A stretch of 62,810 nucleotides of DNA. It comes from Steroidobacteraceae bacterium. GTDB taxonomy: Bacteria > Pseudomonadota > Gammaproteobacteria > Steroidobacterales > Steroidobacteraceae. The position numbers and the translations under genes are program-made. The notes under the pieces were generated by a model. That model worked only from the letters and a program-made list of their open reading frames with translations, had not been told where the DNA came from and made no database searches. The DNA lies in contig DATMRG010000012.1 of the NCBI GenBank assembly GCA_035566495.1, positions 1-62,810 of the forward strand. The letters are read 5' to 3'. Positions 1-53,363 of this stretch are shown here, in pieces; position 1 is the stretch's first letter; each line of letters starts with the position of its first letter.

Positions 1-1551
1 GAGATACTTCTCGAGCAGCTGCTGCGCCTCCGCCTCGAAGGAGGCGAACATCGCGCGGTGCACGTCCTCCTTCACCCAGCGGTTGTAGAACTCCTTGCGG
101 GCGGTCACCAGGTGGTCGATCCAGGCCTTCTTCTGCTTGGCATCCATACGCGCATCGCTCTCGATGGAGTCCTTGAGCGCCAGCAGCAGCTCCATGCTGG
201 TGAGGCTGTGGGTGTTGCCGCGGGTGATGGCGTTGGAGATCGCGTTGATGACGAAGCGCGGGCTCACGCCGGTCAGGCCCTCGTCGGGCACTTCGGCGCG
301 GAGGCGCTGCGCTTCGGTCTCGGGCATGCCCTCGACCGCCTCGCCGGCATAGAGCCGCAGCTTCTTGGCGACGTCGAGCCCTTCGCGCTCCGGCTTCACG
401 AGGCGCGTGAGGATGGCGAACACGGAGGCGAGATTCAGCACGTGCGGGTCGAGATGCACGTTGCGGAATGCCGGCGCACCCGACACCAGCTTCAGGTAGA
501 TGCGCGACTCGTCGCGGTAGGAGAGCGCGTAGGGGATCTTGATGATCACCATGCGATCGAGCAGCGCCTCGTTCTCCTTCTCCTGCAGGAACTTGTGGAA
601 CTCGGCAAGATTGGTGTGCGCCAGGATGGTCTCGTCGAGGTGAATCAGCGGGAAGCGCGACACCTTGACGTTCTTCTCCTGGGTGAGGGTCAGGAGCAGG
701 TAGAGGAACTCGCGCTTCACCTTCAGGATCTCGATCATCTCGAGCACCCCGCGGCTCGCGGCGTACACGGCGCCGGACCAGGACCAGGCGCGCGGGTCGC
801 CCTCGTCGCCGATCTGCGCGACCTTGGCGAGATCCACCGAGCCGACGAGATCGGCGATATCGGCGGTGGTCGGGTCGTGCGGCGCGTACGTGCCGATGCC
901 GACGCGCGAGGCCTCGGCGAGGAACACCCGCTCGACCGGCACGCGCACGAAGTCGCCCTCGTAATCGCGCTCGACGAAGTCGCGCGCCCAGGGCGAGAGC
1001 TCGCCCTGCACGCTGATGCCGTAGCGCTGGCGGAACTCGGCACGGAGACTGGTGGGAATGAGGTTCAGCGGGTTCTCGCGCAGCGGCGAACCGCGGATCG
1101 CGTAGAGCGCGCCCTCGTCGGTGCGGCTGTATTCCTCGAGCCCGCGCTTGAGCAGTATGGCGACCGTGGACTTGCCGCCCGACGGTGGCCCGAGCATCAA
1201 GAGCAGACGCCGTCCGACGTCGGAACCGGCGGCGGCGGCCTTGAAGTAATCGACCAGGCGCGACAGCGGCTCGTCGATGCCGAACAGCTCGTGCTTGAAG
1301 AGCTCGACCGCGCGCACGTTCTCGGCGGCGTCGGGCTGCGCGGCGCGGCCGTGCCAGCGCAGCATGTCCCAGATGTATTCGTGGCTCGTGCGCGCCAGTG
1401 CGCTCGGATTCGCCGGCAGGATGTTGGCGAGGAAATCCCCGAAGGTGCCTTCCCAGCGCTGCGCGCGGTGCAGCTTGCTGAAGGAACTCAGGGTGTCGAT
1501 GAAGGTGGCGTTCGAGCCGTGAGAATCCGAGTCAGCTCCGAGTGGTCGCAT
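1..1551 (-). CDS. prkA: PrkA/YeaG-family AAA-type serine protein kinase, N-terminal 517 codons (3' end lies beyond the left window edge)
   Basis: Absent from the ORF track because it has no stop inside the window. Hand translation of the minus strand from ATG 1551 (SD GGAGGG at 1560-1565) reads MRPLGADSDSHGSNATFIDTLSSFSKLHRAQRWEGTFGDFL... It contains the P-loop LLLMLGPPSGGKSTVAILLKRGLEEYS and GVLEMIEILKVKREFLYLLLTLTQEKNVKVSRFPLIHLDETILAHTNLAEF, and stays open in frame to nt 1. The plus-strand ORF 58..1623 is its antisense shadow. Confidence 0.9.
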   Translation of the reverse strand, partial: MRPLGADSDSHGSNATFIDTLSSFSKLHRAQRWEGTFGDFLANILPANPSALARTSHEYIWDMLRWHGRAAQPDAAENVRAVELFKHELFGIDEPLSRLVDYFKAAAAGSDVGRRLLLMLGPPSGGKSTVAILLKRGLEEYSRTDEGALYAIRGSPLRENPLNLIPTSLRAEFRQRYGISVQGELSPWARDFVERDYEGDFVRVPVERVFLAEASRVGIGTYAPHDPTTADIADLVGSVDLAKVAQIGDEGDPRAWSWSGAVYAASRGVLEMIEILKVKREFLYLLLTLTQEKNVKVSRFPLIHLDETILAHTNLAEFHKFLQEKENEALLDRMVIIKIPYALSYRDESRIYLKLVSGAPAFRNVHLDPHVLNLASVFAILTRLVKPEREGLDVAKKLRLYAGEAVEGMPETEAQRLRAEVPDEGLTGVSPRFVINAISNAITRGNTHSLTSMELLLALKDSIESDARMDAKQKKAWIDHLVTARKEFYNRWVKEDVHRAMFASFEAEAQQLLEKYL

Positions 1552-2223
1552 CGTCCTTACCCTCCGTTGAGCTCACCAGTCCCTGGATGCCGGCTCAGGC
1601 CGGCGGATCCGCCTGACGTCTAAACTTAGTCCCAACGTCCCCATCAAAAAGTGACGGCTTTCCGATCCTCGTGGACTGATTACGTTAAGAGTGTCACAGC
1701 AACGGATTGTTCGCGCCAGAGGCCCGGGACGCCACCACGCAGGCGGGAGCGCTGGCGCGGAAACGGCCGCGGCCCCTTAAGTGGCTGATTGCAAAGCTCT
1801 GCGCACGGCCCAAGGTGGTGCCTGCGCGCGGCGCGCACCCGGGTGGAATTCGCTGCAGACGGCGGCTCCCGGGCCGCGCCAGCCGGGGCCGGTTGCGCAC
1901 CCCGCGCCGCCTGCGGTTCTGCGGCCGCGCGGGCCGCGCCGGACCGCCGCCGCCTGCCGCTCGAGCCGCGCCCCGGCCGCCCCCCCTCGGCCGCCGCGCG
2001 CGAAGCGAGCAGTGGCTCTGACTTTGGGCATCGCCGTCGCCGCACCCCGACGCGCCCTATCGTTATTGTGAACTGACGCACTGCGCTTGCGGTGAGGCTA
2101 CATATCCTCCATCGGCGAGGAGTTGCGCGCTGGGTATTTGCCGTGCGCGGCGGCCTCACTTCACGGATGGAGGGGATTCTTCAGCTTTGTCCGTGACCGC
2201 AAATCAGGTGGGAGACACGCCAC

Positions 2224-4329
2224 GTGGCCAGTGCAGCATCCAGATCATCGCGTAATCCCGCTACGGCATCGTCCGCGACCGCCACTGGCGGGGCGACGAG
2301 CCTGCAGCCCTCGGTCGACGTCACCGCCATCACGACGCGCGACGATTTCCTGCTCGAGCTCGGCCAGGCATTGGGCGGCCAGGCGTCGATCCGCCCGGTC
2401 GATTCGGTCGAGGCCGCGCTCGAGAGCCTCGGCGCACACGCCAGGCGCGGCCAGGTCCTGGTCATCGACGCGCTGCATGCGAACGAGGTCCGCCCCGCGG
2501 TGGATGCCGCGCAGGCGCACGCCCCGCAAGCGGTAATCCTGGTGTTCGCCGCCGAGGCGATCGAGCGCCAGGTAGCCGCGGCTGTCAAGGGCTCGAGGGT
2601 TTTCGCCGTTCTCCCCTCCTCGCCGATCGATCCGCGGAAGACGCACGCGGTGTTCGCCGGCGTGATCGAGGAGGCGGCCGCGAGGAGAAAGCCCGCGGCG
2701 CCGCCGGCGGCAGAGCCGCCGCTCGCCGTGCCGGACGACCTCGAGCTCGAGTCCACCCGCAGCGCCGCGGCTCTCAAGGTTCCGGGCATGAGCGGCGGCA
2801 AGGGCCTCCTCATCGCCGGCGCGCTGGTCGCGGTGGCGGCAATTGCGGCCGGCGCCTGGTTCTTCACGCGCGGCGGCGGCACCGCCAACGCGCCGGTCAC
2901 GCCGGCGGCGCAGCCCGAGGCCGCGGCGCCGGCCGCGGCTCCCCCCGAGGCGGCGCTGCCCGCGGCACCGAGCCCGGATCTCTCGATCGTGCACGGTAAG
3001 GTGGACGAGCTGCTCGAGAAGGCCCGCCTGGCCATGCGCGAGCGCCGCTACACCGAGCCCACCGGTGACAACGCGCTGCTCTACTACCGCTCCGCGGTCG
3101 CGGCCAATGCCGCCAACGGCGAGGCCCGCGACGGCCTGCAGCGCGTCGCCGGCGTGCTCGCCGGCCGCTTCGACGAGTCATTGAGCGCCGGCCACCTCGA
3201 TGAGGCCGCGCAGAACTTCGCCAATTTCAGGGCCGCCGTGCCCGACGATGCGCGCGTCGCCGAGCTCGGCGCGCGGCTCGCCAACTCCCAGATCACCAAG
3301 GCGGTGGCCGAGGGCAACATCGAGCGCGCTGCCGCCCTCGTCAAGCAGGCGCAGCAATCGGGCGCCCTGCCGGCCGACCAGCTCGCCAGATGGAAGGGCG
3401 AGCTCGCCAAGCGCCAGGACGACGCCAAAATGCAGCGCCTCGCCGGCCTCGTCGAGGATCGCATCCGCGAGGGCAAGCTCGCCGACCCCGCCGACGACAG
3501 CGCCAGGTTCTACGTGCGTCAGCTGCTCACGGCTTATCCCTCGAGCCAGAGCGCCGTGCGCGCCCAACACGCCCTCGCCGGCGCTTACCTGCGCAAGGCG
3601 CGCGAAGCCGCGCTCGCCAGAAATGGCGCCGAGCAGGAGCGCTGGCTGAATGAGGCGCGCGGCGCCGGCGCATCCAGCAACGAAATCAACGCCTTCCAGC
3701 GCGATCTGGCCGGCGCCCAGGCCAAGGCCGCGCGTGCCGAGGGCGACCGCTTCGCGCAGCTGGCACGCGAGCGCGTGCGCGACGGCCGCCTCACCGACCC
3801 CGCCCAGGACAGTGCCGCTTTTTATCTGACGCAGCTGCAGTCGGCCGATCCGGACAACGCGGCGGTGGCTGCGGTGAGCCGTGACCTCGCGAAGCTGCTC
3901 CTCGAGCGCGCCCGCACCAGTTTGCAGGCGGGCAGGAGCGCCGACCAGGACCTCGCCGCCGCGCGCCGCTTCGGCGCCGACCCGAGGGACATCCAGGCCG
4001 CGCAGCAGGCGGGCGCGTCCAGGGCGGGCGCAAACGTCGATCCGGCGACCCTGGCCGCGAGTCTCAAGGCCGTGAAGACGGTGCCACCCGAGTACCCGCA
4101 GAGCGCTCTCGCCAAGGGCGTCTCGGGCAGCGTGCTCCTGTCCTTCACCGTCGACGGCAAGGGCGATACGCGCGACGTGCAGGTTCTGCAGTCGACTCCG
4201 GCCGGCGTGTTCGACCGCGCCGCCATCAGCGCCGTGAAGCGCTGGCGCTACAACCCGGTGATCGTGAACGGCAGCGCGGTCGAAGTCCCCGCCAAGACGC
4301 GGGTGCGCTTCGAGCTGCCGAAGCAGTAG
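2224..4329 (+). CDS. TonB C-terminal-domain protein with a cytoplasmic receiver-like N-domain, one TM helix and periplasmic helical repeats (701 aa)
   Basis: GTG start with GGTGGGAG about 9 nt upstream. The C-terminus VKTVPPEYPQSALAKGVSGSVLLSFTVDGKGDTRDVQVLQSTPAGVFDRAAISAVKRWRYNPVIVNG...RVRFEL is a TonB_C domain. TM helix LLIAGALVAVAAIAAGAWFF is flanked by Pro/Ala-rich linkers. Three repeats are present: RYTEPTGDNALLYYRSAV, KLADPADDSARFYVRQLL and RLTDPAQDSAAFYLTQLQ. The N-terminal ~150 aa has an alternating beta/alpha pattern (QVLVIDAL, AVILVFAA, VFAVLPSSP). Confidence 0.85.
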   Translation: MASAASRSSRNPATASSATATGGATSLQPSVDVTAITTRDDFLLELGQALGGQASIRPVDSVEAALESLGAHARRGQVLVIDALHANEVRPAVDAAQAHAPQAVILVFAAEAIERQVAAAVKGSRVFAVLPSSPIDPRKTHAVFAGVIEEAAARRKPAAPPAAEPPLAVPDDLELESTRSAAALKVPGMSGGKGLLIAGALVAVAAIAAGAWFFTRGGGTANAPVTPAAQPEAAAPAAAPPEAALPAAPSPDLSIVHGKVDELLEKARLAMRERRYTEPTGDNALLYYRSAVAANAANGEARDGLQRVAGVLAGRFDESLSAGHLDEAAQNFANFRAAVPDDARVAELGARLANSQITKAVAEGNIERAAALVKQAQQSGALPADQLARWKGELAKRQDDAKMQRLAGLVEDRIREGKLADPADDSARFYVRQLLTAYPSSQSAVRAQHALAGAYLRKAREAALARNGAEQERWLNEARGAGASSNEINAFQRDLAGAQAKAARAEGDRFAQLARERVRDGRLTDPAQDSAAFYLTQLQSADPDNAAVAAVSRDLAKLLLERARTSLQAGRSADQDLAAARRFGADPRDIQAAQQAGASRAGANVDPATLAASLKAVKTVPPEYPQSALAKGVSGSVLLSFTVDGKGDTRDVQVLQSTPAGVFDRAAISAVKRWRYNPVIVNGSAVEVPAKTRVRFELPKQ

Positions 4330-4345
4330 AACAGGAGCAACTCCG

Positions 4346-6532
4346 ATGACCCTGAGCGGCACCGACCGCCGTCGCCAACTCATCACCGCCGGTATCGGCA
4401 CGGTGCTCACGCTCGTCATGGGCGCGGTGCTGTTCGTCGGCTTCCGCATCGCGACCCAGATGCGCGCCAACATCACCGCGCTGCAGACGGCGAGCTCGCT
4501 GCAGAACTATCCCGACGACATCACCCAGCAGCTCACCTCGCTCCGCGACCGGCTCGAGGCGCGCGCCTATTCGGGCCAGGCGCTCGAGGACCTGCAGGGC
4601 ACGGTGCGGCGCTTCGACCGGCAGCTGAAGGAGCTGAACGCCGCCGGCGCAATCCACTCGCCCGAGCTTGCGCGCGCGCTGCAGCTGTGGCGCGAATACG
4701 GCCCGGTGATCGAGCCGGTCGTCAGCTTCAACGCCCAGCCCTACGTGGACTCGGACACCTCCGGCAGCACGCTGTCGCGCGAGGGACGCGCGCACTACGC
4801 CGAGGTGAAGCGCGCCCAGCTGTTCGCCACCGACAATGCCAAGGTGCTGCAGGCGCAGCTGGCGACGCTCGCCACTTCGCTCCAGCACGAGGCCTCGGAC
4901 GCCGCCGCGCGCCTGCGCGCGCTGCTGTCGATCGGCGTGGTGGCGGCGCTGGTGCTGGCCGCCGCCGCCGCCTGGTTCCAGTTCACCCGCTCGCGCCACG
5001 AGCGTGTCGCGCGCGAGGCGCAGGAGCAGACCCGCGACATCCTCAAGACGGTGCGCGAGGGCTTCTTCCTGCTGGACGCCGACTATCGCATCGGCTCGGT
5101 GTGGTCGGAGGCGCTGACGCGCATGTTCGGGCGCGACGACTTCGCCGGCCTGTCCTTCGAAGAGCTGCTCAGGGACCTGGTGCCACCGGCGACCCTCGCC
5201 ACCGCCACCAAGTACATCAAGCTCCTGTGGGGCGAGCGCGCCCACGAGAACCTGATGAAGAGCATCAACCCCCTGGGTCAGCTCGAGATCACCATGGACA
5301 ACGGCCACGGCGGCCGCGAGACGCGCTACCTGCAGTTCGATTTCCACCGCGTCATGGGGCCGGCGGGCATCAAGCACGTGCTGTGCGCGGTCGGCGACAT
5401 CACCTCCGGCGTGCTCCTGGCGCGCGAGCTGCAGGAGTCGCAGGAGAACGCCAACGCCCAGGTCGACATGATGCTGGCGATGATGCACATCGACCCGCTG
5501 CAGCTGGTGTCGTTCCTCGACGGCGCCGAGACGGGGCTGAAGCTCGTCAACACCATTCTCAGGGAGCCGGCGCGCAGCGACGCCGAGTTCCGCAAGAAGC
5601 TCTCCGGACTGTTCCGCGAGCTGCACTCGATCAAGGGCGAAGCCTCGGCGCTCAGCCTCACGAGCATCGCCGCGCGCGTGCACGCGCTCGAGGACATCGT
5701 CAGCGAGCTGAAGAAGAAGGCCGAGCTCTCCGGCAACGACTTCCTGCCGATGGTATTGAAGCTCGACGACCTGCTCGCGCATCTGCGCTCAGTGCGCGAG
5801 ATGGCCGGACGCCTCACGGCGCTCAAGGAGAGCGCCACCGCCGGCGCCGGTACCACCGCCTTCACCGCCCCCGCCGCGGTGGCGCCGGCCGCGCCGCCGC
5901 CTGCGCCCGCGCCGAGCCAGCAGCCCGCCGCGCGCACCGCGCCGCAGTACGCACGGCGCGCGGAGGATCTGGCGCCGACACTGCATTCGCTCGCCGAGCG
6001 CCTGGCGCAGGATCACGGCAAGCGCTTCCGGCTCAAGCTCGCCGGCCTCGCCGACGTGCCGGCCCCGTACGTAGCGACCGTCAAGGACTGCCTGATCCAG
6101 ATGCTGCGCAACGCCGCGGTGCACGGCATCGAGGCGCCCGAGGTGCGGCGCTCGCTCACCAAGCAGGACATCGGCGTCGTGAGCGTCACCTTCCAGCGCA
6201 GCGCCGACTCCTTCGACCTGATGTTCGAGGACGACGGCGCCGGCATCGCGCCCGACACGCTCAAGGCCGCCGCGGTGCGCCAGCAGCTCATCACCGAGGA
6301 CGAGGCCGCCGCCATGGACACGCGCACCGCGATGGCGCTCATCTTCCGCCCCGGCTTCTCGACCCAGGACGACGTGTCGATGGACGCGGGCCGCGGCGTC
6401 GGCATGGACGTCGTGGCGCGCAGCGTCTACGCGCTCGGCGGCAGGATCGGCGTCAGCACGCACCCGGGGAAGTACACCCGTTTCAAGATCTCGCTCCCGG
6501 CCGGTCAGGCCTCGAGCAGCGCGGTCGCCTGA
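4346..6532 (+). CDS. Membrane-bound CheA-like histidine kinase: 2 TM + periplasmic helical sensor, PAS-like domain, Hpt, CheA-type ATPase (P4); no CheW-like P5 domain
   Basis: ATG 4346 is preceded by AGGAG. TM1 is ITAGIGTVLTLVMGAVLFVGF and TM2 is LLSIGVVAALVLAAAAAWFQF. The Hpt motif is FRELHSIKGEASALSL. The CheA-type catalytic domain reads VKDCLIQMLRNAAVHGIE...MFEDDGAGI...IFRPGFSTQDDVSMDAGRGVGMDVV...GKYTRFKISLP. The protein ends 10 aa after the ATPase. Confidence 0.88.
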   Translation: MTLSGTDRRRQLITAGIGTVLTLVMGAVLFVGFRIATQMRANITALQTASSLQNYPDDITQQLTSLRDRLEARAYSGQALEDLQGTVRRFDRQLKELNAAGAIHSPELARALQLWREYGPVIEPVVSFNAQPYVDSDTSGSTLSREGRAHYAEVKRAQLFATDNAKVLQAQLATLATSLQHEASDAAARLRALLSIGVVAALVLAAAAAWFQFTRSRHERVAREAQEQTRDILKTVREGFFLLDADYRIGSVWSEALTRMFGRDDFAGLSFEELLRDLVPPATLATATKYIKLLWGERAHENLMKSINPLGQLEITMDNGHGGRETRYLQFDFHRVMGPAGIKHVLCAVGDITSGVLLARELQESQENANAQVDMMLAMMHIDPLQLVSFLDGAETGLKLVNTILREPARSDAEFRKKLSGLFRELHSIKGEASALSLTSIAARVHALEDIVSELKKKAELSGNDFLPMVLKLDDLLAHLRSVREMAGRLTALKESATAGAGTTAFTAPAAVAPAAPPPAPAPSQQPAARTAPQYARRAEDLAPTLHSLAERLAQDHGKRFRLKLAGLADVPAPYVATVKDCLIQMLRNAAVHGIEAPEVRRSLTKQDIGVVSVTFQRSADSFDLMFEDDGAGIAPDTLKAAAVRQQLITEDEAAAMDTRTAMALIFRPGFSTQDDVSMDAGRGVGMDVVARSVYALGGRIGVSTHPGKYTRFKISLPAGQASSSAVA

Positions 6533-6541
6533 GCACGCACG

Positions 6542-6916
6542 ATGAACGCCAGGCGGCCCATGAAGCTGATGATCGTCGATGACTCGAATATCATGCGCCG
6601 CCGCATAGAGCGCTCGCAGCAGTTCGAGGAGCTGCAGCTGGTCGGCACCGCCGGCAACGGCATCGAGGCCATCGAGCTCTTCAAGCGCACCGATCCGGAC
6701 GTCGTGACCATGGATCTGACCATGCCGCGCATGGACGGCATCGAGTGCATCAGCCGCCTGGTGGCCCTCAAGCCCGAGGTCCGTATCCTGGTGGTCTCGG
6801 CGCTGGCCGACAAGGCCACCGCGGTCGAGGCGATGGAGAAGGGTGCCAACGGCTTCCTCAACAAACCGTTCACCGACCGGCAGCTGAACGAGGCGATCGC
6901 GGAGCTGATGCGCTGA
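6542..6916 (+). CDS. Single-domain CheY-like response regulator (124 aa; alternative start ATG 6560)
   Basis: KLMIVDDSNIMRRRI...DVVTMDLTMPRMDGIE...ILVVSALADK...GANGFLNKPF gives a full receiver signature (DD, D, S/T, K-P). Confidence 0.92.
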   Translation: MNARRPMKLMIVDDSNIMRRRIERSQQFEELQLVGTAGNGIEAIELFKRTDPDVVTMDLTMPRMDGIECISRLVALKPEVRILVVSALADKATAVEAMEKGANGFLNKPFTDRQLNEAIAELMR

Positions 6917-7362
6917 TGTTGCACGAACAGGAGCTGAAGACTTTCGTCGAGGGGACGACGAACTTCTTCGAGGTGGCGGCCCAGCAGCCGGCCTCGATCG
7001 GCTCCCCCTACCTTCTGGAAGGCATGCCCCAGGTACACGAGTACACCGGCGTCATCAATATCTCCGGCAAGCGCGAGGGTGTGGTGTTCTTCACCGCGCC
7101 CAAGGCGATGCTGACCGTGCTGCTGATGAAGATGCAGGAGAACGACTTCAGCCACGAGACCATGCGTGATCTGGTGGGCGAGGTCGCCAACACCATCTCC
7201 GGCAACGCGCGCCGCGACTTTGGCCGTGAGTTCGTGATCTCGGTGCCGTCGGTGCTGTCGGGCGAGAAGCCCGCGATTCCGCAGCGGCCCGGCCTGCGCT
7301 CGTTCATCATCCCGATCAACTGGCGCAGTCATTCGGCCAAGCTGGTCGTCTCCCTGACCTAA
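6916..7362 (+). CDS. CheX-family protein (CheY-P phosphatase fold), 148 aa
   Basis: ATG 6916 overlaps the CheY-like stop (TGATG). The sequence runs MLHEQELKTFVEGTTNFFEV...YTGVINISGKREGVVFFTAP... and carries the CheC/CheX-type motif D-x3-E-x2-N in RDLVGEVANTISGNA. The track ORF 6745..7362 is the same frame extended upstream into the CheY gene. Confidence 0.8.
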   Translation: MLHEQELKTFVEGTTNFFEVAAQQPASIGSPYLLEGMPQVHEYTGVINISGKREGVVFFTAPKAMLTVLLMKMQENDFSHETMRDLVGEVANTISGNARRDFGREFVISVPSVLSGEKPAIPQRPGLRSFIIPINWRSHSAKLVVSLT

Positions 7363-8063
7363 CCGGCCGCGTCGTCGTCGGCGCGTAGTCGGTAGCCGAC
7401 TCCGGTCTCCGTAAGCAGATAGCGCGGCTGGCGCGGGTCCGGCTCGAGCTTGGCGCGCAGGTTCTTGATGCAGACCCGCAACGAGCGCGAGTCATCCTCG
7501 CGTCCCGGCCCCCACACCTCGCGGATCAGCTGTCGTTGCATCACGATCGAGCCGAGCTGGCGCGCGAGGCAGCCGAGCACCCGGTACTCGAGCGGCGTCA
7601 GGTGGATCTCGCCGTCGGCGCTGCGCGTCTCGCGTCGCGCCAGATCGACCCGCACGCCGCCGAACCTGAGCGTCGCCGAAGGCGCGGCGTGCGTCACACG
7701 CCGCAGCGCCGCGCGCAGCCGCGCCAGCAGCTCCGGCGCGCTGAAGGGCTTGGCGATGTAGTCGTCCGCGCCGGCATCGAGCGCCGCCACCTTCTGCTCC
7801 TCCATGGTGCGCGCCGACAGCACCACGATCGGTACCGGTGACCAGGCACGCACGCGGCGGATCACCTTGAGGCCATCGCCGTCGGGCAGTCCGAGATCGA
7901 TGAGCAGCAGGTCCGGCTTGTGACTGCGCGCCTCGATCTCGGCGCGCAGCGCGGTGTCGGCCTCGATGTAGCGGTAGCCCGCGGCGGTCAGCAGCACACG
8001 CAGCACGGCGCGGATGCCCGGCTCGTCCTCGATCACCAGCACCTGGTGCATCGCCTCGGTCAT
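7359..8063 (-). CDS. kdpE: KdpE, OmpR-family response regulator of the kdp operon
   Basis: QVLVIEDEPGIR...DLLLIDLGLPDGDG...VVLSART...ADDYIAKPF plus a winged-helix C-terminus (LTPLEYRVL...YLLTETGVGYRL). ATGA overlap with the kdpD stop at 8060-8063. Confidence 0.93.
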   Translation of the reverse strand: MTEAMHQVLVIEDEPGIRAVLRVLLTAAGYRYIEADTALRAEIEARSHKPDLLLIDLGLPDGDGLKVIRRVRAWSPVPIVVLSARTMEEQKVAALDAGADDYIAKPFSAPELLARLRAALRRVTHAAPSATLRFGGVRVDLARRETRSADGEIHLTPLEYRVLGCLARQLGSIVMQRQLIREVWGPGREDDSRSLRVCIKNLRAKLEPDPRQPRYLLTETGVGYRLRADDDAAG

Positions 8064-10792
8064 GTAGGCGCGTCCAGTGGCGACACCGCCGCTGCCACAT
8101 CCGGCGCCGACCCTTCGGTCGCAGGCAGAGTGAACACGAAGCGCGCCCCGCCGCCCGCGCGGCGCTGTGCTTCGATCTCGCCGCCGTGGGCGCGCACGAT
8201 CGCCTGGACGATCGCGAGGCCGAGCCCGACTCCCATCACGCTCCCTTCGCCGTTGCCGCGCTGGAACTTATCGAACAGGCGCGCCGGATCGCCGGCGGGA
8301 AGCCCGGGCCCGTCGTCCTCGACCGACACCTGCACGAAATCGCCGACCGGAACTGCGGACACCGACACGTGGGTGCCGGGCGGAGTGTACTTGGCGATGT
8401 TGTCGAAGAGATTGGCGAACACCTGCACGATCAGCGTGGCGTCGACCCATACCGGCGGCAGATCGGGCGCGAGGCGCGTCTCCACCGGATGATCCGCGAA
8501 CCGCTCCTGATAGCGCGTGAGGGCGCTGCCGACCAGGTCGTCGAGGGTCTGCCAGTCGCGCCGCAGCGCCACCTGGCCGGACTCGAGCCGTACCAGATCG
8601 AGGACGTTCGAGACCAGATCCGACATCTCGCGCGCCGTGGTCTCGATCGAGCGCGCCAGCTCGACGCGCGTCGCCTGATCGAGCGAGCCGCCGTGCTGGG
8701 CGAGCGCGCTGCCGGCCCCCGCCATCACGGCGAGCGGCGTGCGCAGATCGTGCGAAATTGACGAGAGCAACGTATTGCGCAGGGTCTCGCGCTCGGCCGC
8801 CAGGCTCGACTGCACCGCGATCTCGGCGAGATGGGCGCGCTCGAGGGCGAGCGCGATCTGCCCGGCGAAGGTCTCGAGCAGATGGCTCTGCTCGGGCAGC
8901 AGCACGCGGCGCGCATTCTCGGGCAGCACCGCCAGAACTCCGACCGTGCGCTGCTCGTCGCCGAGCGGCACGTACAGCCCGCGCGCCGCGGGCAGGGTGT
9001 CGGAGCCGAGACCCGCGCGGCGGCCGTGATCCGCGACCCACTGTGCCACGGCCAGGTCCGCCCCGCGGAACGAGCTGTCGAGCGGCGGCTCCGCCGGATA
9101 GTGGAGCTTGCCGTCGGTGTCGGGCAGCAGCACCGCCGCCCGGCACTGGAACACCTCGGCGACGTGCCGCACCGCCACGCGCGCCATGTTGGTGATGCCG
9201 CGGGTCACGGCCAGCTCGCGGCTCATCGCGTACAGCAGCGCCGTGCGCCGCTCGCGCGCTCCCGCAACCCGGGTCTGCTGGCGCACGCTCGCGGTGAGCG
9301 TCGCGATCACGAGCGCGATCGTGACCATGGCGCCGAAGGTGACCAGGTACTGAACGTCCGAGACCGCGAACGAGAAGCGCGGCGGCACGAAGAAGAAGTC
9401 GAAGGCGGCGACGTTCAGCACCGCGGTCAGCGCCGAGGGTCCGCGCCCGAGCCGCAGGCCCGCCACCGTGACGCCGAGCAGGTAGATCATCACGAGGTTC
9501 GAGAGGTCGAAGTGCGGATACATGGCCGCCGCCAACAGCGTGCAGAGCACGGTAATGGTGGCGGCCCAGGCGTAACGGTCCCAGCGCACCGCCGACACAT
9601 GCGCGGGTTGTCGGGCGTCCGGGAGCGGGGCGGGCGGCGGCGGGCGCGGCGAGGCGGCGATCAGCACCACATCGAACCCGCGCGCGCGGCGCGCCAGCTC
9701 GGTGGCGGTCGAGGGCCTGAGCCAGGCGTGCCAGCCGCGGCGCTTGGGCGCGCCGACGATGACGCGGGTGGCGTGGCGGGTCTGCGCGTACTCGAGGAGT
9801 GTGGCGGCCGCGGAGGGGCCATCGAGCGTCACGGTCTCGCCGCCGAGCGACTCGGCGAGGCGCAGCACGTCGATGCGGCGGTTGCGCTGTGAGTCCGACA
9901 GCCGCAGCAGCCAGGGCGTCTCCACGTACACCACGGTCCACTCGGCATCCAGCGCATCCGCCATGCGTTTGCCGGCGCGCACCAGCTGCTCGGCCTGCTC
10001 GTCCGGGCCGACCGCGACCAGCACCCGGTCGCGCGCCCCGCGTGCCTGGGCGCGGTCGGGCGGCAGCTCGCGCGAGGCGGCCTCGACGCGGTCGGCGACG
10101 CGGCGCAGGGCGATTTCGCGCAGCGCCATCAGGTTCTGCTTGCGGAAGAAGCGCTCGACGGCGGTGCCGGCCTGGCTGGCCACGTATACCTTGCCGGCGT
10201 GCAGCCGCGCGATCAGGTCGTCGGGCGGCAGGTCGATGAGCTCGATGTCGTCGGCCTCGTCGAACACGTGATCGGGGAGCGTCTCGCGCTGGCGGATGCC
10301 GGTCGTCTGGAACACCAGATCGTTGAGGCTCTCGAGGTGCTGGACGTTGACCGTGGTCCAGACGTTGACTCCCGCCGCCAGCAGCTCCTCGATGTCCTGC
10401 CAGCGCTTGGGATGGCGCGGCGCGGGCTCGCCGCCCACGAGGTTGGAGTGCGCGAGCTCGTCGACCAGCAGGATCTCCGCGCGGCGCGCCAGCGCCGCAT
10501 CGAGGTCGAACTCCTGGCGGACGATGCCGCGGTAGCTGACCGGCAGCGTCGGCAGCCGCGGCAGCCCCTCGAGCAGCCGCTCGGTCTCGATGCGCCCGTG
10601 CGGCTCGACGTAGCCGACGACCACGTCGGTGCCCGCGGCGCGCACGTTGCGGGCCGCTTCCAGCATCGCGTAGGTCTTGCCGACGCCGGCGGAGGCGCCG
10701 AAGAAGATGCGCAGGCGGCCGCGGTGCTGGCGCGCCTCATCCGCCTTGACGCGCTCGAGCAGCTGGTCGGGGTCAGGCCGGGTTTCGGCCAT
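8060..10792 (-). CDS. kdpD: KdpD sensor histidine kinase (910 aa)
   Basis: N-terminal KdpD domain with P-loop FFGASAGVGKTYAML, a USP-like segment and 4 TM helices. H-box LLSSISHDLRTPL. ATPase motifs FANLFDNIAKYT...VEDDGPGL...GVGLGLAIV. Confidence 0.95.
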   Translation of the reverse strand: MAETRPDPDQLLERVKADEARQHRGRLRIFFGASAGVGKTYAMLEAARNVRAAGTDVVVGYVEPHGRIETERLLEGLPRLPTLPVSYRGIVRQEFDLDAALARRAEILLVDELAHSNLVGGEPAPRHPKRWQDIEELLAAGVNVWTTVNVQHLESLNDLVFQTTGIRQRETLPDHVFDEADDIELIDLPPDDLIARLHAGKVYVASQAGTAVERFFRKQNLMALREIALRRVADRVEAASRELPPDRAQARGARDRVLVAVGPDEQAEQLVRAGKRMADALDAEWTVVYVETPWLLRLSDSQRNRRIDVLRLAESLGGETVTLDGPSAAATLLEYAQTRHATRVIVGAPKRRGWHAWLRPSTATELARRARGFDVVLIAASPRPPPPAPLPDARQPAHVSAVRWDRYAWAATITVLCTLLAAAMYPHFDLSNLVMIYLLGVTVAGLRLGRGPSALTAVLNVAAFDFFFVPPRFSFAVSDVQYLVTFGAMVTIALVIATLTASVRQQTRVAGARERRTALLYAMSRELAVTRGITNMARVAVRHVAEVFQCRAAVLLPDTDGKLHYPAEPPLDSSFRGADLAVAQWVADHGRRAGLGSDTLPAARGLYVPLGDEQRTVGVLAVLPENARRVLLPEQSHLLETFAGQIALALERAHLAEIAVQSSLAAERETLRNTLLSSISHDLRTPLAVMAGAGSALAQHGGSLDQATRVELARSIETTAREMSDLVSNVLDLVRLESGQVALRRDWQTLDDLVGSALTRYQERFADHPVETRLAPDLPPVWVDATLIVQVFANLFDNIAKYTPPGTHVSVSAVPVGDFVQVSVEDDGPGLPAGDPARLFDKFQRGNGEGSVMGVGLGLAIVQAIVRAHGGEIEAQRRAGGGARFVFTLPATEGSAPDVAAAVSPLDAPT

Positions 10793-10798
10793 GTTGGA

Positions 10799-11388
10799 TC
10801 ACTTCAGCGAGTCAAGCGCCAGATTGAGCTCGAGGACGTTGACCCGCGGCTCGCCGATGACTCCCAGCAACCTACCCTCGGTGTGCGCGTCAATCAATGC
10901 CCGCACCCGCGCCTCGGGCAGGGAGCGCGCGCGCGCGACGCGCGCCGCCTGGTATTGCGCCGCCGCGACGCTGATGTGCGGATCGAGACCGCTTGCGGAC
11001 GCGGTCACGAGATCGACCGGGACCGGCGCGCTATTGCCCGGGTCCGCCGTCCTGAGCGTCGCGATGCGCGCCTTCACCGCATCGAGGAGCGCCGGGTTGA
11101 GGGGACCGAGGTTCGAGCCGGTCGAGCCCGTGCCGTTGTAGGGCTGCGGCGTCGTGGCCGAGGGCCGGCTCCAGAAGTGTCCGGGATCGCCGAAGCTCTG
11201 ACCGATCAGCGCCGAACCCAGCGCGTGCCCGCCGCGCAGCAAGAGGCTGCCGCCGGCGCGCGGGAACAGCAGCTGCGCGATGCCGGTGACGGCGAGCGGA
11301 TAGACGACGCCCGTCAGCACCGTCAGCACGGCGAGCAGCACCAGCGCCGGTCGCAGGGCGCTGCGCACGAGCGGCACGCGGGCGGCGC

Positions 11389-11392
<4 letters not shown>
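10799..11392 (-). CDS. kdpC: Potassium-transporting ATPase subunit KdpC
   Basis: [28 protein letters not shown]...GSALIGQSF...[15 protein letters not shown]...[16 protein letters not shown] overlap with the kdpB stop. Confidence 0.95.
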
Positions 11393-13451
<2,059 letters not shown>

Positions 13452-13455
<4 letters not shown>

Positions 13456-15260
13456 GGGCCAGCCCACAGCATGACGTGCTCGACGATCGGGCCGAGCGCC
13501 AGCGCCGGCACGAAGGTCAGCGCCCCGACCAGCAGCACCGTGCCGATGAGCAGCACGACGAAGGTTGGACCGTGCGTCGGCATGGTGCCGTCGGACACCG
13601 GAATGCGCTTCTTGGCGGCGAGCGAGCCGGCCACCGCCAGCACCGCCACGATCGGCCAGAAGCGGCCGAGCCACATGGTGAGCGCCAGCGCCACGTTCCA
13701 GAACGGCGTGTTGGCCGAGATGCCGGCGAAGGCGCTGCCGTTATTGTTACCGGCGGAGGAGAAGGCATAGAGGATCTCGGAGAAGCCGTGCGCGCCGGGA
13801 TTGGCGACGGCGGCACGGCCGGCGTCGAGGCTGACGGCGACCGCGGTGCCGGTGAGGACGATGAAGGGCATCACCAGGATCGCGATCGAGCTCATCTTCA
13901 TCTCGAAGGCCTCGATCTTCTTGCCGAGGTACTCGGGCGTACGGCCGATCATGAGACCGGCGATGAACACGCCGACGATGGCGAAGATCAGCATGGAATA
14001 GAGGCCGGTGCCGACGCCGCCGAACGCCACTTCGCCGAGCTGCATCTGAAACAGCGGCACGAAGCCGCCGAGCGGCGTGAACGAGTCGTGCATGCCGTTG
14101 ACCGCGCCGCAGGAGGTGGCGGTGGTGATGGTGGCGAACAGCGCCGAGGCGGCGATCCCGAAGCGGCTCTCCTTGCCCTCCATGTTGCCGCCCGGCTGCG
14201 TGGCGCTCGCGGCCTGATCGACGCCGAGCCGCGCCACGAGCGGATTGCCCTGCTGCTCGCTGTGCACCGTCACGGCGAGCAGCGCCACGAACAGGATGGC
14301 CATGGCGGCCAGCACCGCCCAGCCCTGGCGCGTGTCCCCCACCATCCGGCCGAAGGTGTAGGTGAGGCCGGCCGGAATCACCAGGATCGCCAGCATCTCG
14401 AGCAGGTTGGAGAGCGCCGTCGGATTCTCGTACGGATGGGCGGAGTTGGCGTTGAGGAAGCCGCCGCCGTTGGTGCCGAGCTCCTTGATGCTCTCCTGCG
14501 AGGCGATCGGACCCATGGGCAGGGTCTGCACGCGGGTCGTGAGCGTCTCCTGCACCGGGTTGCCGGCGGCATCCTTCACCGGGTTAGCGGCGGCATCGAG
14601 CTTCGGCTGCTGGTAGGTCAGCGCCTCGAGGGTGGCGACGTCCTGGTAGCCGCTGAAGTTCTGGATCACGCCCTGCGAGGCGAGCGCGAGCGCCAGCACC
14701 AGGGCGAGCGGCAGGAGCACGTAGAGCGTCGCGCGCGTGAGATCCACCCAGAGGTTGCCGATGGTGCGGGCGGTGTGGCGGGCCAGGCCGCGCACCAGCG
14801 CGATCGCCACCACGATACCGCTGGCCGCGGACAGGAAGTTCTGCACCGCGAGCCCGGCCATCTGCGTGAGATAGCTCATGGCGGACTCGCCCGAGTAGCC
14901 CTGCCAGTTGGTGTTGGTGACGAAGCTCACCGCCGTGTTGAAGGCGGAGTCGGGCGTCAGGTTGGTGAAATGCTGCGGATTGAGGGGCAGCCAGGCCTGG
15001 CAGCGCTGCAGCAGGTACACCACGAGCGCCCCGAGCGCATTGAACAGAATGAGGCCCGCGGCGTACTGCTTCCAGCCCATCTCGGACGCCGGGTCGACGC
15101 CGCACAGACGATAAATCCAGCGCTCGAGCGGCGCGCCGGCGCGCAACGGCCAGCCGGCGCCGCCCTCGAACACCCGCGCCATGTAGAACCCCATCGGCTT
15201 CACGCAGGCCAGCACCAGCAGCAGGAAGGCCGCGATCACGGTGAGAGCGGCCGCGGTCAT
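13452..15260 (-). CDS. kdpA: Potassium-transporting ATPase subunit KdpA (602 aa)
   Basis: Polytopic membrane protein with KdpA selectivity-filter-like segments ([35 protein letters not shown]). The start overlaps the kdpF stop (TGATG at 15258-15262). Confidence 0.93.
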
Positions 15261-32344: not shown

Positions 32345-32433
32345 CGTCTCGAGCTGCGCGCCGGCTGACGCGAAGAAGAGGTTCGCGCCGCCGAGACGCC
32401 GCGAAGCCTCGAACGGCAGCGCGGGCAGCGCGT

Positions 32434-35271: not shown

Positions 35272-35342
35272 GGGTGTTGCTCGGCGTCGTAATAGTTGTT
35301 CAAGGCAACCGGACCAGGCGGAGACAGAGGGTTAAGTCTGGG

Positions 35343-37902: not shown

Positions 37903-38008
37903 GGCAGGCCTGCGGGTGGACGGTGGGCGCCGCACTATAACGCGCAGGCTGCCCGGCGTGCCTCAGGCGGGCTTGACCGGGCCACATCGATCGGATCTAT
38001 TGCCGCGC

Positions 38009-53322: not shown

Positions 53323-53363
53323 ATTTGCCCTACTCTTGCTCACCCAATATTGCCCCGTCACCC

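What the first reader, a model, noticed from the sequence alone, without database searches (positions are those of the whole stretch)
2224..7362. Compact tonB-like / CheA-like kinase / CheY / CheX operon with no chemotaxis, motility or ExbBD partners: candidate phosphorelay-controlled envelope-spanning module
Four co-directional genes are separated by 16 nt, 9 nt and a 1-nt overlap (TGATG at 6914-6918).

The four products are:
1. A 701-aa protein with a cytoplasmic receiver-like domain, one TM helix, three periplasmic helical repeats and a TonB_C domain.
2. A two-TM sensor with PAS-like, Hpt and CheA-type ATPase domains but no CheW-like P5 domain.
3. A 124-aa CheY-like receiver.
4. A CheX-type protein with an intact D-x3-E-x2-N phosphatase motif.

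Nothing else in the 62.8 kb encodes an MCP, CheW, CheB/CheR, flagellar or pilus genes, ExbB/ExbD or a TonB-dependent receptor.

A kinase, a diffusible CheY and its dedicated phosphatase make a complete fast on/off switch, and the only obvious output encoded with them is the TonB-like protein. My inference is that CheY~P docks on the cytoplasmic N-domain of the TonB-like protein and gates an envelope-spanning function. I do not recognise this arrangement as a characterised system, but I could not run a literature or database search.
Basis: partly seen in the sequence, partly recalled or inferred. Interest (0 to 1): 0.75.

Follow-up and report, generated by a model that had tools for sequence, protein, structure and literature searches.

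The report
Receiver-headed TonB-like protein with kinase–CheY–CheX switch
A soil gammaproteobacterium (Steroidobacteraceae-like) carries a tight four-gene operon in which an uncharacterised kinase/CheY/CheX phospho-switch is always linked to a membrane-spanning protein with a degenerate receiver domain inside the cell and a TonB-type domain in the periplasm, a combination that no one seems to have described and that may couple phosphorylation signalling to the outer membrane.

Summary
The four ORFs, their spacing and nearly all domain calls are confirmed; only "PAS-like" could not be verified.

The 701-aa protein (T) has three parts:
- a cytoplasmic (βα)5 receiver fold that keeps only the acceptor Asp;
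- one TM helix followed by a TPR-like solenoid;
- a canonical TonB C-terminal domain.

The kinase has CheA-type Hpt and P4 domains but lacks the dimerization and CheW-like domains. It also has its own two-TM sensor, so it is not a CheA.

Kinase–CheY–CheX is a conserved stand-alone triad in all 82 genome loci. These include non-flagellated Neisseria, with close kinase homologues in Kingella and Psychrobacter.

T is linked to the triad only in Steroidobacteraceae-like genomes. There it occurs in five gene orders, often with a pseudo-receiver Ser/Thr kinase. In the reciprocal survey T was followed by the kinase in 71 of 71 informative loci.

T's receiver is near-canonical in one clade and degenerate in the window's clade.

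Best reading: a branched Hpt phosphorelay whose receiver-bearing TonB-like partner links relay state to the envelope. No literature match was found. I rate it a new variant of known kinds.

The parts
2224..4329 (+). T: the TonB-like membrane-spanning protein (701 aa, GTG start)
   Evidence: ORF. The N-terminus is conserved in 20 homologues. An SD-like GGGAGA lies upstream of the start.
2314..2682 (+). Cytoplasmic receiver-fold domain of T (residues 31-153). It keeps the acceptor Asp82 but lacks the canonical acidic pair, Thr and Lys, so it is a pseudo-receiver.
   Evidence: AlphaFold2 predicts a (βα)5 topology. Foldseek matches it to receiver domains. Asp82 is conserved in 61 of 61 sequences. 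Pfam Response_reg gives no hit.
2806..2862 (+). Single TM helix of T (residues 195-213). It contains no His or Ser motif.
   Evidence: Hydropathy scan and sequence; alignment.
2983..4026 (+). Periplasmic all-helical TPR-like region of T (residues ~254-601), with three repeats starting at residues 272, 413 and 517
   Evidence: AlphaFold2 pLDDT is about 90. Foldseek finds TPR superhelices. The repeat motif is located.
4084..4317 (+). TonB C-terminal domain of T (residues 621-698)
   Evidence: Pfam PF03544, 72.8 bits. TIGR01352. Foldseek match to 6i97_D with TM-score 0.87 normalised to the target and rmsd 1.4 Å.
4346..6532 (+). K: sensor histidine kinase (728 aa). Architecture: TM1 (13-31), periplasmic domain, TM2 (193-211), conserved cytoplasmic block, Hpt, Ala/Pro linker, CheA-type P4.
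5513..5788 (+). Hpt (P1-like) domain of K. The phospho-acceptor is His427 (codon 5624-5626).
   Evidence: Pfam Hpt. It aligns with CheA P1 around HsiKG. His427 is invariant in 29 diverse homologues.
5984..6505 (+). CheA-type ATP-binding (P4, HATPase_c) domain of K. The N, G1 and G2 boxes are intact.
   Evidence: PDB profile match to CheA P4, E = 6e-44. Motifs located. Invariant columns.
6542..6916 (+). Y: CheY-like single-domain response regulator (124 aa) with intact D13, D14, D58, S86 and K108
   Evidence: Pfam, 99 bits. Alignment A5. Closest solved structures are Thermotoga- and archaeal-type CheY, E ~5e-23.
6916..7362 (+). X: CheX-family phosphatase (148 aa). Active-site motif DLVGEVAN at residues 85-92 (nt 7168-7191).
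   Evidence: Pfam PF13690. PDB CheX 3hm4, E = 4.6e-9. Motif present in 77 of 77 family members.

Best explanation
**Abbreviations:** K = the sensor kinase, Y = the CheY-like regulator, X = the CheX-family protein, T = the TonB-like protein, S = a Ser/Thr kinase partner found in related loci.

The locus encodes a branched, non-chemotaxis Hpt-type phosphorelay.

**Core of the relay (inferred from intact catalytic motifs)**
1. K is membrane-bound. It has its own periplasmic sensor, a conserved cytoplasmic block, a CheA-type Hpt and a CheA-type P4 domain, but no dimerization or CheW domain.
2. K autophosphorylates on His427.
3. It passes the phosphate to the soluble CheY-like protein.
4. CheX dephosphorylates CheY and so sets its lifetime.

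**The triad is the ancestral unit (shown)**
- K-Y-X is a widespread, self-contained module with a highly conserved CheY.

**What the Steroidobacteraceae-like lineage added (linkage shown)**
- This lineage recruited T, a single-pass inner-membrane protein. Its cytoplasmic head is a receiver domain, and its periplasmic part is a TPR-like solenoid ending in a canonical TonB C-terminal domain.
- I propose that the receiver-like head is the contact point with the relay. Ancestrally it was a second phospho-acceptor of the Hpt domain, because one clade keeps Asp, Thr and Lys-Pro.
- In the window's clade it has degenerated to an Asp-only docking domain. It would bind Hpt~P or CheY~P.
- The state of the relay would thus be transmitted inside-out through T to whatever its TonB_C end binds, namely TonB-box outer-membrane proteins. 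This would happen without canonical ExbBD energisation. All of this is inferred.
- The CheY/CheX branch then acts both as a separate output and as a fast phosphate drain.
For: **The relay components look functional**
- Catalytic motifs are intact and conserved in K, Y and X.
- Operon-like spacing of 16 nt, 9 nt and a 1-nt overlap, with no internal terminators beyond chance.

**The triad is a conserved unit**
- The K-Y-X order is conserved wherever the contig extends far enough, across all 82 loci and several orders.
- The kinase family is large: 1,303 clusters (at 50% identity) match at E ≤ 1e-30.

**T is linked to the triad**
- T is present in 63 of 80 species-representative loci.
- It occurs in five gene orders: T-K-Y-X, T-S-K-Y-X, S-T-K-Y-X, K-Y-X-T and S-K-Y-X-T. 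Linkage survived rearrangements and a gene insertion.
- In the reciprocal survey, T was followed by K in 71 of 71 informative loci.

**T's head is a receiver fold with a constrained active-site face**
- The receiver fold is well supported.
- All 60 complete T proteins have the domain, and Asp82 is invariant.
- The deepest-conserved positions are T37, D40, D82, residue 84 and P134. They sit in the loops around the receiver active site.
- The K-Y-X-T clade, which includes cultured Peristeroidobacter agariperforans, keeps 'LMATG' and 'HKP'.

**Other support**
- A second recurrent partner, S, also carries a degenerate receiver head. This suggests that receiver-like domains are the common adaptor to this relay.
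- T's TonB_C domain is canonical: the YP and W-x-Y motifs are invariant, and the TM-score to P. aeruginosa TonB CTD, normalised to the target, is 0.87.
Against: - No experiment and no complex prediction was possible, so contact between T and the relay is inferred from linkage only.
- In the window's clade the receiver lacks the acidic pair in its canonical position, Thr and Lys. Phosphorylation there is unlikely.
- The T-linked genomes are one family-level clade, and most are MAGs. Part of the synteny is inherited rather than independently selected.
- The α1 sequences of CheY and the T head are dissimilar, and a profile-profile comparison is not significant.
- Nothing shows which way the signal flows.
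- No outer-membrane partner is encoded nearby. No TonB-dependent receptor or ExbBD family recurs in the flanks.
- Triad-only genomes show that the relay works without T.
Confidence: 0.4

Rival explanations
1. CheY~P is the only relay output here. It docks on the pseudo-receiver head of the TonB-like protein T, as a receiver–receiver heterodimer, and gates its envelope function. CheX resets the switch.
For: - T carries a receiver-fold head. Receiver domains commonly pair through α4-β5-α5, which is established knowledge.
- In the window's clade the head cannot plausibly be phosphorylated, so binding a phosphorylated partner is attractive.
- The genes are tightly linked.
Against: - CheY is 53-73% identical, and its α4-β5 region is invariant, in taxa that have no T gene near the triad. 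CheY's conserved partner is therefore something else.
- The most conserved positions of the T head surround the acceptor Asp rather than α4-β5-α5.
- One clade keeps Thr and Lys-Pro, which points to direct phosphotransfer.
- No interaction was tested.
Confidence: 0.2
2. The TonB-like protein T is an input, not an output. Its TonB_C end reports on outer-membrane TonB-box proteins, for example ligand-loaded receptors. The signal reaches the kinase through periplasmic TPR–sensor contacts or through the pseudo-receiver head, so T is a lineage-specific co-sensor. The triad's output lies elsewhere and is the same in all taxa.
For: - The triad and its very conserved CheY exist without T.
- The kinase's periplasmic domain varies between lineages. 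One homologue carries a PilJ domain, and there is a weak match to the ligand-binding domain of a chemotaxis transducer, PDB 6gcv.
- T's TM helix lacks the His motif needed for ExbBD energisation. That fits a passive reporter.
Against: - Receiver folds are normally signal-receiving modules.
- The head is near-canonical in the K-Y-X-T clade, which suggests it accepts phosphate rather than controlling the kinase.
- There is no evidence of contact between the two periplasmic domains.
Confidence: 0.2
3. The cluster is an accessory branch of a conventional chemotaxis, flagellar or type IV pilus pathway whose MCP, CheW and motor partners are encoded elsewhere. The TonB-like gene is only a syntenic neighbour.
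For: - CheY is closest to genuine chemotaxis CheYs.
- In Vibrio, CheX phosphatases act on the flagellar CheY3 (PMC12887009).
- The window is only 62.8 kb, so the rest of the genome was not seen.
Against: - The kinase lacks the CheW-like and dimerization domains that every CheA has (PMC10542144). It has its own transmembrane sensor, so it cannot plug into an MCP array.
- The triad, or its kinase, occurs in non-flagellated Neisseria, Kingella, Alysiella, Conchiformibius and Psychrobacter.
- T keeps its linkage through five gene orders.
- The Vibrio cheX sits in a different gene context, next to zur and yjbQ.
Confidence: 0.1

Closest known systems
CheA–CheY–CheX of CheC/CheX-type chemotaxis systems (Thermotoga maritima, Borrelia burgdorferi)
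   Same: - Hpt with the HsiKG phospho-His motif.
- CheA-type P4 ATPase domain (E = 6e-44 to CheA P4).
- A Thermotoga-type single-domain CheY.
- CheX with the D-x3-E-x2-N motif.
   Different: - No P3 dimerization domain and no P5 CheW-like domain.
- The kinase has two TM helices, a periplasmic domain and a conserved cytoplasmic block.
- No MCP or CheW gene lies in the locus.
- The triad, or its kinase, is present in non-flagellated genera.
TonB / TolA energy transducers
   Same: - Single-pass inner-membrane protein.
- Ala/Pro-rich segment after the TM helix.
- A long periplasmic spacer.
- A canonical TonB C-terminal domain (TM-score 0.87 normalised to the target).
   Different: - About 190 cytoplasmic residues form a receiver fold, where TonB has only a short tail.
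- The TM helix lacks the conserved His/Ser motif used to couple to ExbB/ExbD.
- The spacer is a ~350-residue TPR-like solenoid.
- No exbBD genes lie nearby.
Myxococcus GltJ/GltG of the Agl-Glt gliding machinery (PMC11135422)
   Same: Both are inner-membrane proteins with periplasmic TonB-related parts and a cytoplasmic regulatory domain. That domain is switched by a soluble signalling protein (MglA-GTP for GltJ), which gives inside-out control of an envelope-spanning complex.
   Different: - The cytoplasmic module here is a receiver fold, not ZnR/GYF.
- The regulator is a phosphorelay, not a small GTPase.
- No motor or Glt genes are present.
- Only weak similarity to the myxobacterial AgmX/PglI tail model (E = 0.004, below its cutoff).
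Atypical or pseudo-receiver domains (TadZ/CpaE N-domain, FrzS, PleD first receiver)
   Same: - The same (βα)5 fold. TadZ (4lda) and the CpaE-like structures 4dad and 4dn6 are among the top Foldseek matches.
- Loss of the catalytic Thr and Lys, with the domain used for protein–protein interaction or localisation.
   Different: - Here the domain is fused to a TM helix and a periplasmic TonB_C module.
- The acceptor Asp is strictly retained.
- Sister clades keep a near-canonical active site.
LapD-type inside-out signalling
   Same: Conceptually similar: a cytoplasmic signal is read by an inner-membrane protein whose periplasmic domain then changes what it binds.
   Different: - The signal would be phosphorylation rather than c-di-GMP.
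- There is no domain homology.
- The comparison is purely an analogy from my own knowledge and was not tested.

Membership tests
CheA histidine kinase (core domains per Berry et al., PMC10542144) | Hpt (P1) domain with the phospho-acceptor His | tested here: met
   Pfam Hpt at residues 390-481. His427 lies in HSIKGE, is aligned to the CheA P1 His, and is invariant.
CheA histidine kinase (core domains per Berry et al., PMC10542144) | H-kinase_dim (P3) dimerization domain | tested here: not met
   No Pfam hit at E ≤ 0.1. PDB CheA matches start at profile position ~537-547, which is P4 only. An Ala/Pro-rich linker sits between Hpt and P4.
CheA histidine kinase (core domains per Berry et al., PMC10542144) | CheA-type HATPase_c (P4) domain | tested here: met
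   E = 6e-44 to CheA P4 structures. The N, G1 and G2 boxes are present.
CheA histidine kinase (core domains per Berry et al., PMC10542144) | CheW-like (P5) domain; no sensor domain of its own | tested here: not met
   The protein ends at residue 728, right after P4, with no CheW hit. It has two TM helices and a periplasmic domain.
Chemosensory pathway (MCP + CheW + CheA + CheY) | MCP and CheW genes associated with the kinase | tested here: not met
   None is present in the 62.8-kb window. None appears among the recurrent neighbours in 81 loci. The rest of the genome could not be examined.
CheY-type response regulator | Receiver domain with the acidic pair, acceptor Asp, Ser/Thr and Lys | tested here: met
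   D13, D14, D58, S86 and K108-P109 are all invariant. Pfam gives 99 bits.
CheX (CheC/CheX/FliY phosphatases) | CheX fold and the D/S-x3-E-x2-N active-site motif | tested here: met
   PF13690, 67 bits. DLVGEVAN at residue 85, with the motif in 77 of 77 homologues. PDB CheX 3hm4, E = 4.6e-9. Phosphatase activity itself is not testable here.
TonB energy transducer | C-terminal TonB_C domain | tested here: met
   PF03544, 72.8 bits. Foldseek matches to TonB CTDs with TM-scores of 0.75-0.87 normalised to the target.
TonB energy transducer | N-terminal TM helix with the conserved Ser/His motif that couples to ExbB/ExbD, preceded by a short cytoplasmic tail | tested here: not met
   The TM helix LLIAGALVAVAAIAAGAWF has no His or Ser, and only Trp212 is invariant. 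It is preceded by ~190 cytoplasmic residues. The motif definition comes from established TonB literature (my own knowledge).
TonB energy transducer | Partner ExbB/ExbD and TonB-dependent receptors | not testable with these tools
   None lies in the window or recurs in the flanks. One TonB-dependent receptor lies near the cluster in L036.
Response-regulator receiver domain (N-domain of the TonB-like protein) | (βα)5 fold with the acceptor Asp at the end of β3 | tested here: met
   AlphaFold2 topology. Foldseek matches to receiver domains with TM-scores of 0.73-0.78 normalised to the query. Asp82 is conserved in 61 of 61 sequences.
Response-regulator receiver domain (N-domain of the TonB-like protein) | Acidic pair after β1, Thr/Ser at the end of β4, Lys at the end of β5; recognised by the Pfam Response_reg model | tested here: not met
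   The window protein has T37-T38 where the acidic pair should be (Asp40 and Asp41 are displaced), Phe108 and Leu130. There is no Pfam hit, and hhalign against CheY is not significant. The K-Y-X-T clade does keep Thr and Lys-Pro.

The most novel reading that the evidence does not exclude
The TonB-like protein is the first example of a transmembrane 'response regulator' of the TonB family. In this reading, a phosphorelay acts on a cytoplasmic receiver head, either directly from the Hpt domain or through CheY~P. That drives inside-out control of a periplasmic TonB C-terminal domain, switching engagement with TonB-box outer-membrane proteins on a seconds timescale and independently of ExbBD. The kinase–CheY–CheX triad would then be a widespread, so far unnamed, non-motility signalling module.
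Probability: 0.25. Interest if true: 0.8.

Novelty: new variant of a known kind. Interest (0 to 1): 0.6.

Why it matters
TonB-family proteins are thought of as energy transducers driven by ExbBD, and CheA/CheY/CheX proteins as motility control. This locus suggests two things that are not in the literature I could search.

1. **An uncharacterised signalling triad.** A large family of sensor kinases built from CheA parts, but lacking the array-coupling domains, is always followed by a very conserved CheY and a CheX. The triad, or its kinase, occurs even in non-flagellated Neisseria, Kingella and Psychrobacter. Its output is unknown.

2. **A receiver-headed TonB-like protein.** In one soil lineage a TonB_C protein carries a receiver fold on its cytoplasmic end and is genetically tied to that relay. 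If the link is functional, phosphorylation signalling could directly control, or be informed by, contacts with outer-membrane receptors. That would be a new route for cross-envelope signalling.

A cultured carrier, Peristeroidobacter agariperforans KA5-B, makes the idea testable.

Tried and rejected
- **Sequence-level tests of the N-domain.** A profile search against PDB sequences gave nothing significant (best receiver hit 3kcn, E = 1.8). hhalign against the CheY profile gave probability 0.2. Only the structure-based comparison was informative.
- **Locus search with the 29-sequence kinase alignment.** The first attempt had no stretch conserved enough to search with. It was repeated with 11 sequences.
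- **Regulatory signals.** The promoter/terminator scan of 1500-7600 found no σ70-like sites and three terminator-like hairpins against 2.1 expected. A σ54 −24/−12 pattern gave 50 matches against ~61 expected. Repeats in the upstream intergenic region looked like GC-rich chance matches. No regulatory conclusion was drawn.
- **Search for a recurrent partner in triad-only loci.** The neighbours are ribosomal L28, dehydrogenases, Rho and ABC transporters, with no consistent family.
- **Vibrio cheX lead (VC0377 / vv1_1397).** That gene is flanked by zur, yjbQ and PBP1A, and it acts on the flagellar CheY3. It is a different CheX lineage and context, not this triad.
- **Literature searches.** Searches for the combination (CheX, TonB, Hpt, transmembrane CheA-like, Neisseriaceae, Steroidobacter) returned nothing relevant.

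Full report
**Abbreviations used throughout:** T = the TonB-like protein, K = the sensor kinase, Y = the CheY-like regulator, X = the CheX-family protein, S = a Ser/Thr kinase partner found in related loci.

**1. What is in the sequence**

The window is about 70% G+C. Four co-directional ORFs lie at 2224-4329, 4346-6532, 6542-6916 and 6916-7362.

- TAG, then 16 nt containing AGGAG, then ATG;
- TGA, then 9 nt, then ATG;
- an overlapping TGATG.

A consensus scan found no σ70-like promoter inside the block. It found only chance-level hairpins, 3 against 2.1 expected. The GTG start of the first gene is supported by a conserved N-terminus in homologues and a GGGAGA upstream.

Pfam and NCBIfam confirm TonB_C, Hpt plus HATPase_c, Response_reg and CheX. 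No NCBIfam equivalog model reaches its cutoff for any of the four proteins.

**2. The TonB-like protein (T)**

An AlphaFold2 model built on 20 homologues (mean pLDDT 77.6) shows three folded parts:
- residues 31-153 form a β1α1…β5α5 domain;
- residues 254-601 are all-helical;
- residues 616-698 form a mixed α/β domain.

Foldseek against the PDB matches each part:
- The C-terminus matches TonB C-terminal domains. The best is 6i97_D, with TM-score 0.87 normalised to the target and rmsd 1.4 Å.
- The middle matches TPR superhelices.
- The N-terminus matches receiver domains.

Modelled alone, the N-domain reaches pLDDT 88 and pTM 0.84. Its top 50 PDB matches are almost all receiver domains, with TM-scores up to 0.78 normalised to the query. 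They include the atypical receivers of TadZ and CpaE.

Other features of T:
- One TM helix at 195-213 separates the N-domain from the periplasmic part.
- That helix has no His or Ser, and only Trp212 is invariant. The motif through which TonB couples to ExbBD is therefore absent.
- Three repeats begin at residues 272, 413 and 517.

At the sequence level the N-domain is not recognised as a receiver. It keeps Asp82 at the end of β3. However, it has Thr-Thr where the acidic pair should be, Phe108 for the β4 Thr, and Leu130 for the β5 Lys. It is therefore a pseudo-receiver.

**3. The kinase, CheY and CheX**

A profile of the kinase family matches CheA P4 structures at E = 6e-44 and CheA P1 at about 1e-7.
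- His427 aligns with the CheA phospho-His.
- The N, G1 and G2 boxes are intact.
- There is no dimerization (P3) domain and no CheW-like (P5) domain.
- The protein has two TM helices, a ~160-residue periplasmic domain and a strongly conserved cytoplasmic block at about residues 225-375. I could not assign that block to PAS.

Berry et al. (PMC10542144) found Hpt, dimerization, HATPase_c and CheW domains in every CheA, and no sensor domain. This protein is therefore built from CheA parts but is not a CheA.

The 124-aa protein is a complete receiver. It is closest to Thermotoga- and archaeal-type CheY.

The CheX has the D-x3-E-x2-N motif, as do all 77 homologues retrieved. Its nearest solved relatives are CheX structures.

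**4. The rest of the window**

About 40 further ORFs were scanned. They include:
- kdpABCDE, immediately downstream on the opposite strand;
- a cyanophycin cluster;
- peptidases and dehydrogenases;
- a TIR-domain protein.

No MCP, CheW, CheB/R, flagellar, pilus or ExbBD gene, and no TonB-dependent receptor, was found.

**5. Comparative genomics, the decisive part**

*Size of the families.*
- The kinase has 1,985 close word-sharing homologues.
- In the exhaustive search it has 1,303 representative clusters at E ≤ 1e-30, with full-length matches down to ~28% identity.

*The triad.*
- Eighty loci from GTDB species representatives, plus two from long contigs, were analysed with phmmer.
- Kinase, CheY and CheX occur together, in that order, in every locus long enough to show them.
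- These include Neisseria musculi, N. dentiae, Cellvibrio, Motilimonas, Marinagarivorans, Marinicella and a Burkholderiaceae MAG.
- In those distant taxa the neighbours are unrelated housekeeping or ABC-transporter genes.
- Close kinase homologues also occur in Kingella, Alysiella, Conchiformibius, Wielerella and Psychrobacter. To my knowledge these genera lack flagella.
- CheY is 53-73% identical across all of this, and its α4-β5 region is invariant. The kinases are only ~29-40% identical.

*Linkage of T.* T is found only in the Steroidobacteraceae- or Lysobacterales-labelled genomes. There it occupies different positions:

| Gene order | Loci |
|---|---|
| T-K-Y-X | 35, plus 3 truncated |
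| T-S-K-Y-X | 16 |
| S-T-K-Y-X | 4 |
| K-Y-X-T | 5, including cultured Peristeroidobacter agariperforans |
| S-K-Y-X-T | 2 |

- S is a Ser/Thr protein kinase with its own degenerate receiver head. In most copies Glu sits at the acceptor position and Trp replaces Lys.
- Sixteen loci show only K-Y-X. At least 11 of them have several kb of flank on both sides.
- In the reverse direction, 80 metagenomic loci were retrieved with T as the query. T is followed directly by the kinase in all 71 loci that extend past T. The other nine end less than 200 bp after T.
- No TonB-dependent receptor or ExbBD family recurs in the flanks.

*Variation in T's receiver head.*
- All 60 complete T proteins have the receiver-like head, and Asp82 is invariant.
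- The other deeply conserved positions are T37, D40, residue 84 and P134. They lie in the loops that ring a receiver's active site.
- The K-Y-X-T clade has 'LMATG' and 'HKP', meaning the Thr and Lys-Pro are retained. L033 and L068 keep only the Lys. The window's clade keeps neither.

**6. Interpretation**

*Shown:*
- the operon-like organisation;
- the architecture of the four proteins;
- the triad as an ancient, stand-alone module;
- the persistent, rearrangement-proof linkage of a receiver-headed TonB_C protein to the triad within one lineage.

*Inferred from intact motifs:* the kinase phosphorylates itself on His427, passes the phosphate to CheY, and CheX removes it.

*Proposed:* T's receiver head is the interface to the relay.
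- The gradient from a near-canonical to an Asp-only active site suggests an ancestral second phospho-acceptor of the Hpt domain.
- So does the concentration of conservation around that site.
- So does the existence of a second partner with a degenerate receiver head.
- In the window's clade the head would have become a docking domain for Hpt~P or CheY~P.

The effect would be transmitted through the single TM helix and the TPR solenoid to the TonB_C domain. That domain is canonical and so probably binds TonB boxes. T lacks the ExbBD-coupling motif, so it is unlikely to be a conventional energy transducer.

Rival readings:
It is weakened because CheY's surface is equally conserved where T is absent, so T cannot be the general target.
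- A reversed flow, with T as co-sensor feeding the kinase, is not excluded.
- An accessory role in ordinary chemotaxis is unlikely. The kinase lacks the P3 and P5 domains, has its own sensor, and the triad, or its kinase, occurs in non-flagellated genera.

**7. Comparison with known systems and novelty**

- The parts are familiar: CheA P1 and P4, CheY, CheX, TonB_C, TPR and a pseudo-receiver.
- The closest functional analogies are the Thermotoga/Borrelia CheA-CheY-CheX switch, TonB/TolA, and Myxococcus GltJ. GltJ is an envelope-spanning, TonB-related protein switched from the cytoplasm (PMC11135422).
- Membership tests fail for CheA (no P3, no P5, own sensor), for TonB proper (no coupling motif, large cytoplasmic domain) and for a canonical receiver (T's head).
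- Seven literature searches aimed at the combination found no description of the triad or of a receiver–TM–TonB_C protein. Two further searches followed the GltJ and Vibrio cheX leads.
- The studied Vibrio cheX sits in a different context.
- I rate this a new variant of known kinds, with moderate to high interest.

**8. Limits**

- Nearly all T-carrying genomes are MAGs of one family-level clade.
- No interaction, phosphotransfer or expression data exist.
- The rest of the genome (ExbBD, TonB-dependent receptors, flagella, pili) was not visible.

Noticed in passing
window 1-~1620 (- strand, cut by the window start); L001:739-5272: A prkA–DUF444(yeaH)–spoVR operon lies divergently upstream of the TonB-like gene. 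The PrkA family recurs next to the cluster in 24 loci, including the window. These span three different gene orders (T-K-Y-X, T-S-K-Y-X, S-T-K-Y-X). This may be more than inherited synteny.
   Followed up: partly
L036:6613-7974 and 21 other loci (for example L030, L053, L068): A Ser/Thr protein kinase with an N-terminal degenerate receiver domain is a second recurrent partner of the kinase–CheY–CheX cluster. In most copies the acceptor position is Glu and Lys is replaced by Trp. It appears in four different positions. It is absent from the window.
   Followed up: partly
L036:214-3078 and L036:3075-4250: Upstream of one cluster variant lies a 954-aa fusion of a trypsin-like protease and a TonB_C domain, followed by a 391-aa protein with no Pfam hit. 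The latter recurs in L038, L039 and L046. This is another non-canonical use of TonB_C in this lineage.
   Followed up: no
L080 (Neisseria musculi), L073 (N. dentiae); proteins P0391-P0444: The kinase–CheY–CheX triad stands alone among housekeeping genes in animal-associated Neisseria. Close kinase homologues occur in Kingella, Alysiella, Conchiformibius, Wielerella and Psychrobacter. All are annotated only as 'ATP-binding protein' or 'CheA'. The target of this very conserved CheY is unknown.
   Followed up: partly
window 4439-4921 (kinase residues 32-192): The periplasmic domain of the kinase gives a weak profile match to the ligand-binding domain of a chemotaxis transducer (PDB 6gcv, E = 0.004). 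One distant homologue (P0340) carries a Pfam PilJ domain. This hints at a four-helix-bundle small-molecule sensor.
   Followed up: no
window 7359-15260 (- strand): A complete kdpABC–kdpD–kdpE potassium-uptake locus converges on the cluster. The kdpE ORF end (7359) overlaps the cheX stop (7362) by 4 nt, leaving no room for a terminator between them. In L001 and L002 the kdp genes are absent, and the same downstream genes (Peptidase_S66, TraB/GumN) follow more closely.
   Followed up: partly
window 30623-36194 (- strand): A cyanophycin cluster. It comprises a cyanophycin synthetase (945 aa), a second Mur-ligase-like protein (573 aa) and a Peptidase_S51 (cyanophycinase-type) gene.
   Followed up: no
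window 53325-54644 (+): A 439-aa protein with an N-terminal TIR_2 domain. It is a possible NADase or defence-type protein. It partly overlaps the call for the neighbouring ABC ATPase gene on the other strand.
   Followed up: no
window 37901-41373 (+): The longest ORFs for a DUF885 protein (37901-39847) and an MttB-family methyltransferase (39421-41373) overlap by ~430 nt. The Pfam match in the MttB ORF begins at residue 145, so its true start is probably downstream of the ORF start.
   Followed up: no
window 55498-58740 (+): A 1,080-aa protein with Sortilin/Vps10 and BNR (Asp-box) repeats and a weak FlgD-Ig-like match. It is probably a secreted β-propeller glycan-binding or glycoside-acting protein.
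   Followed up: no
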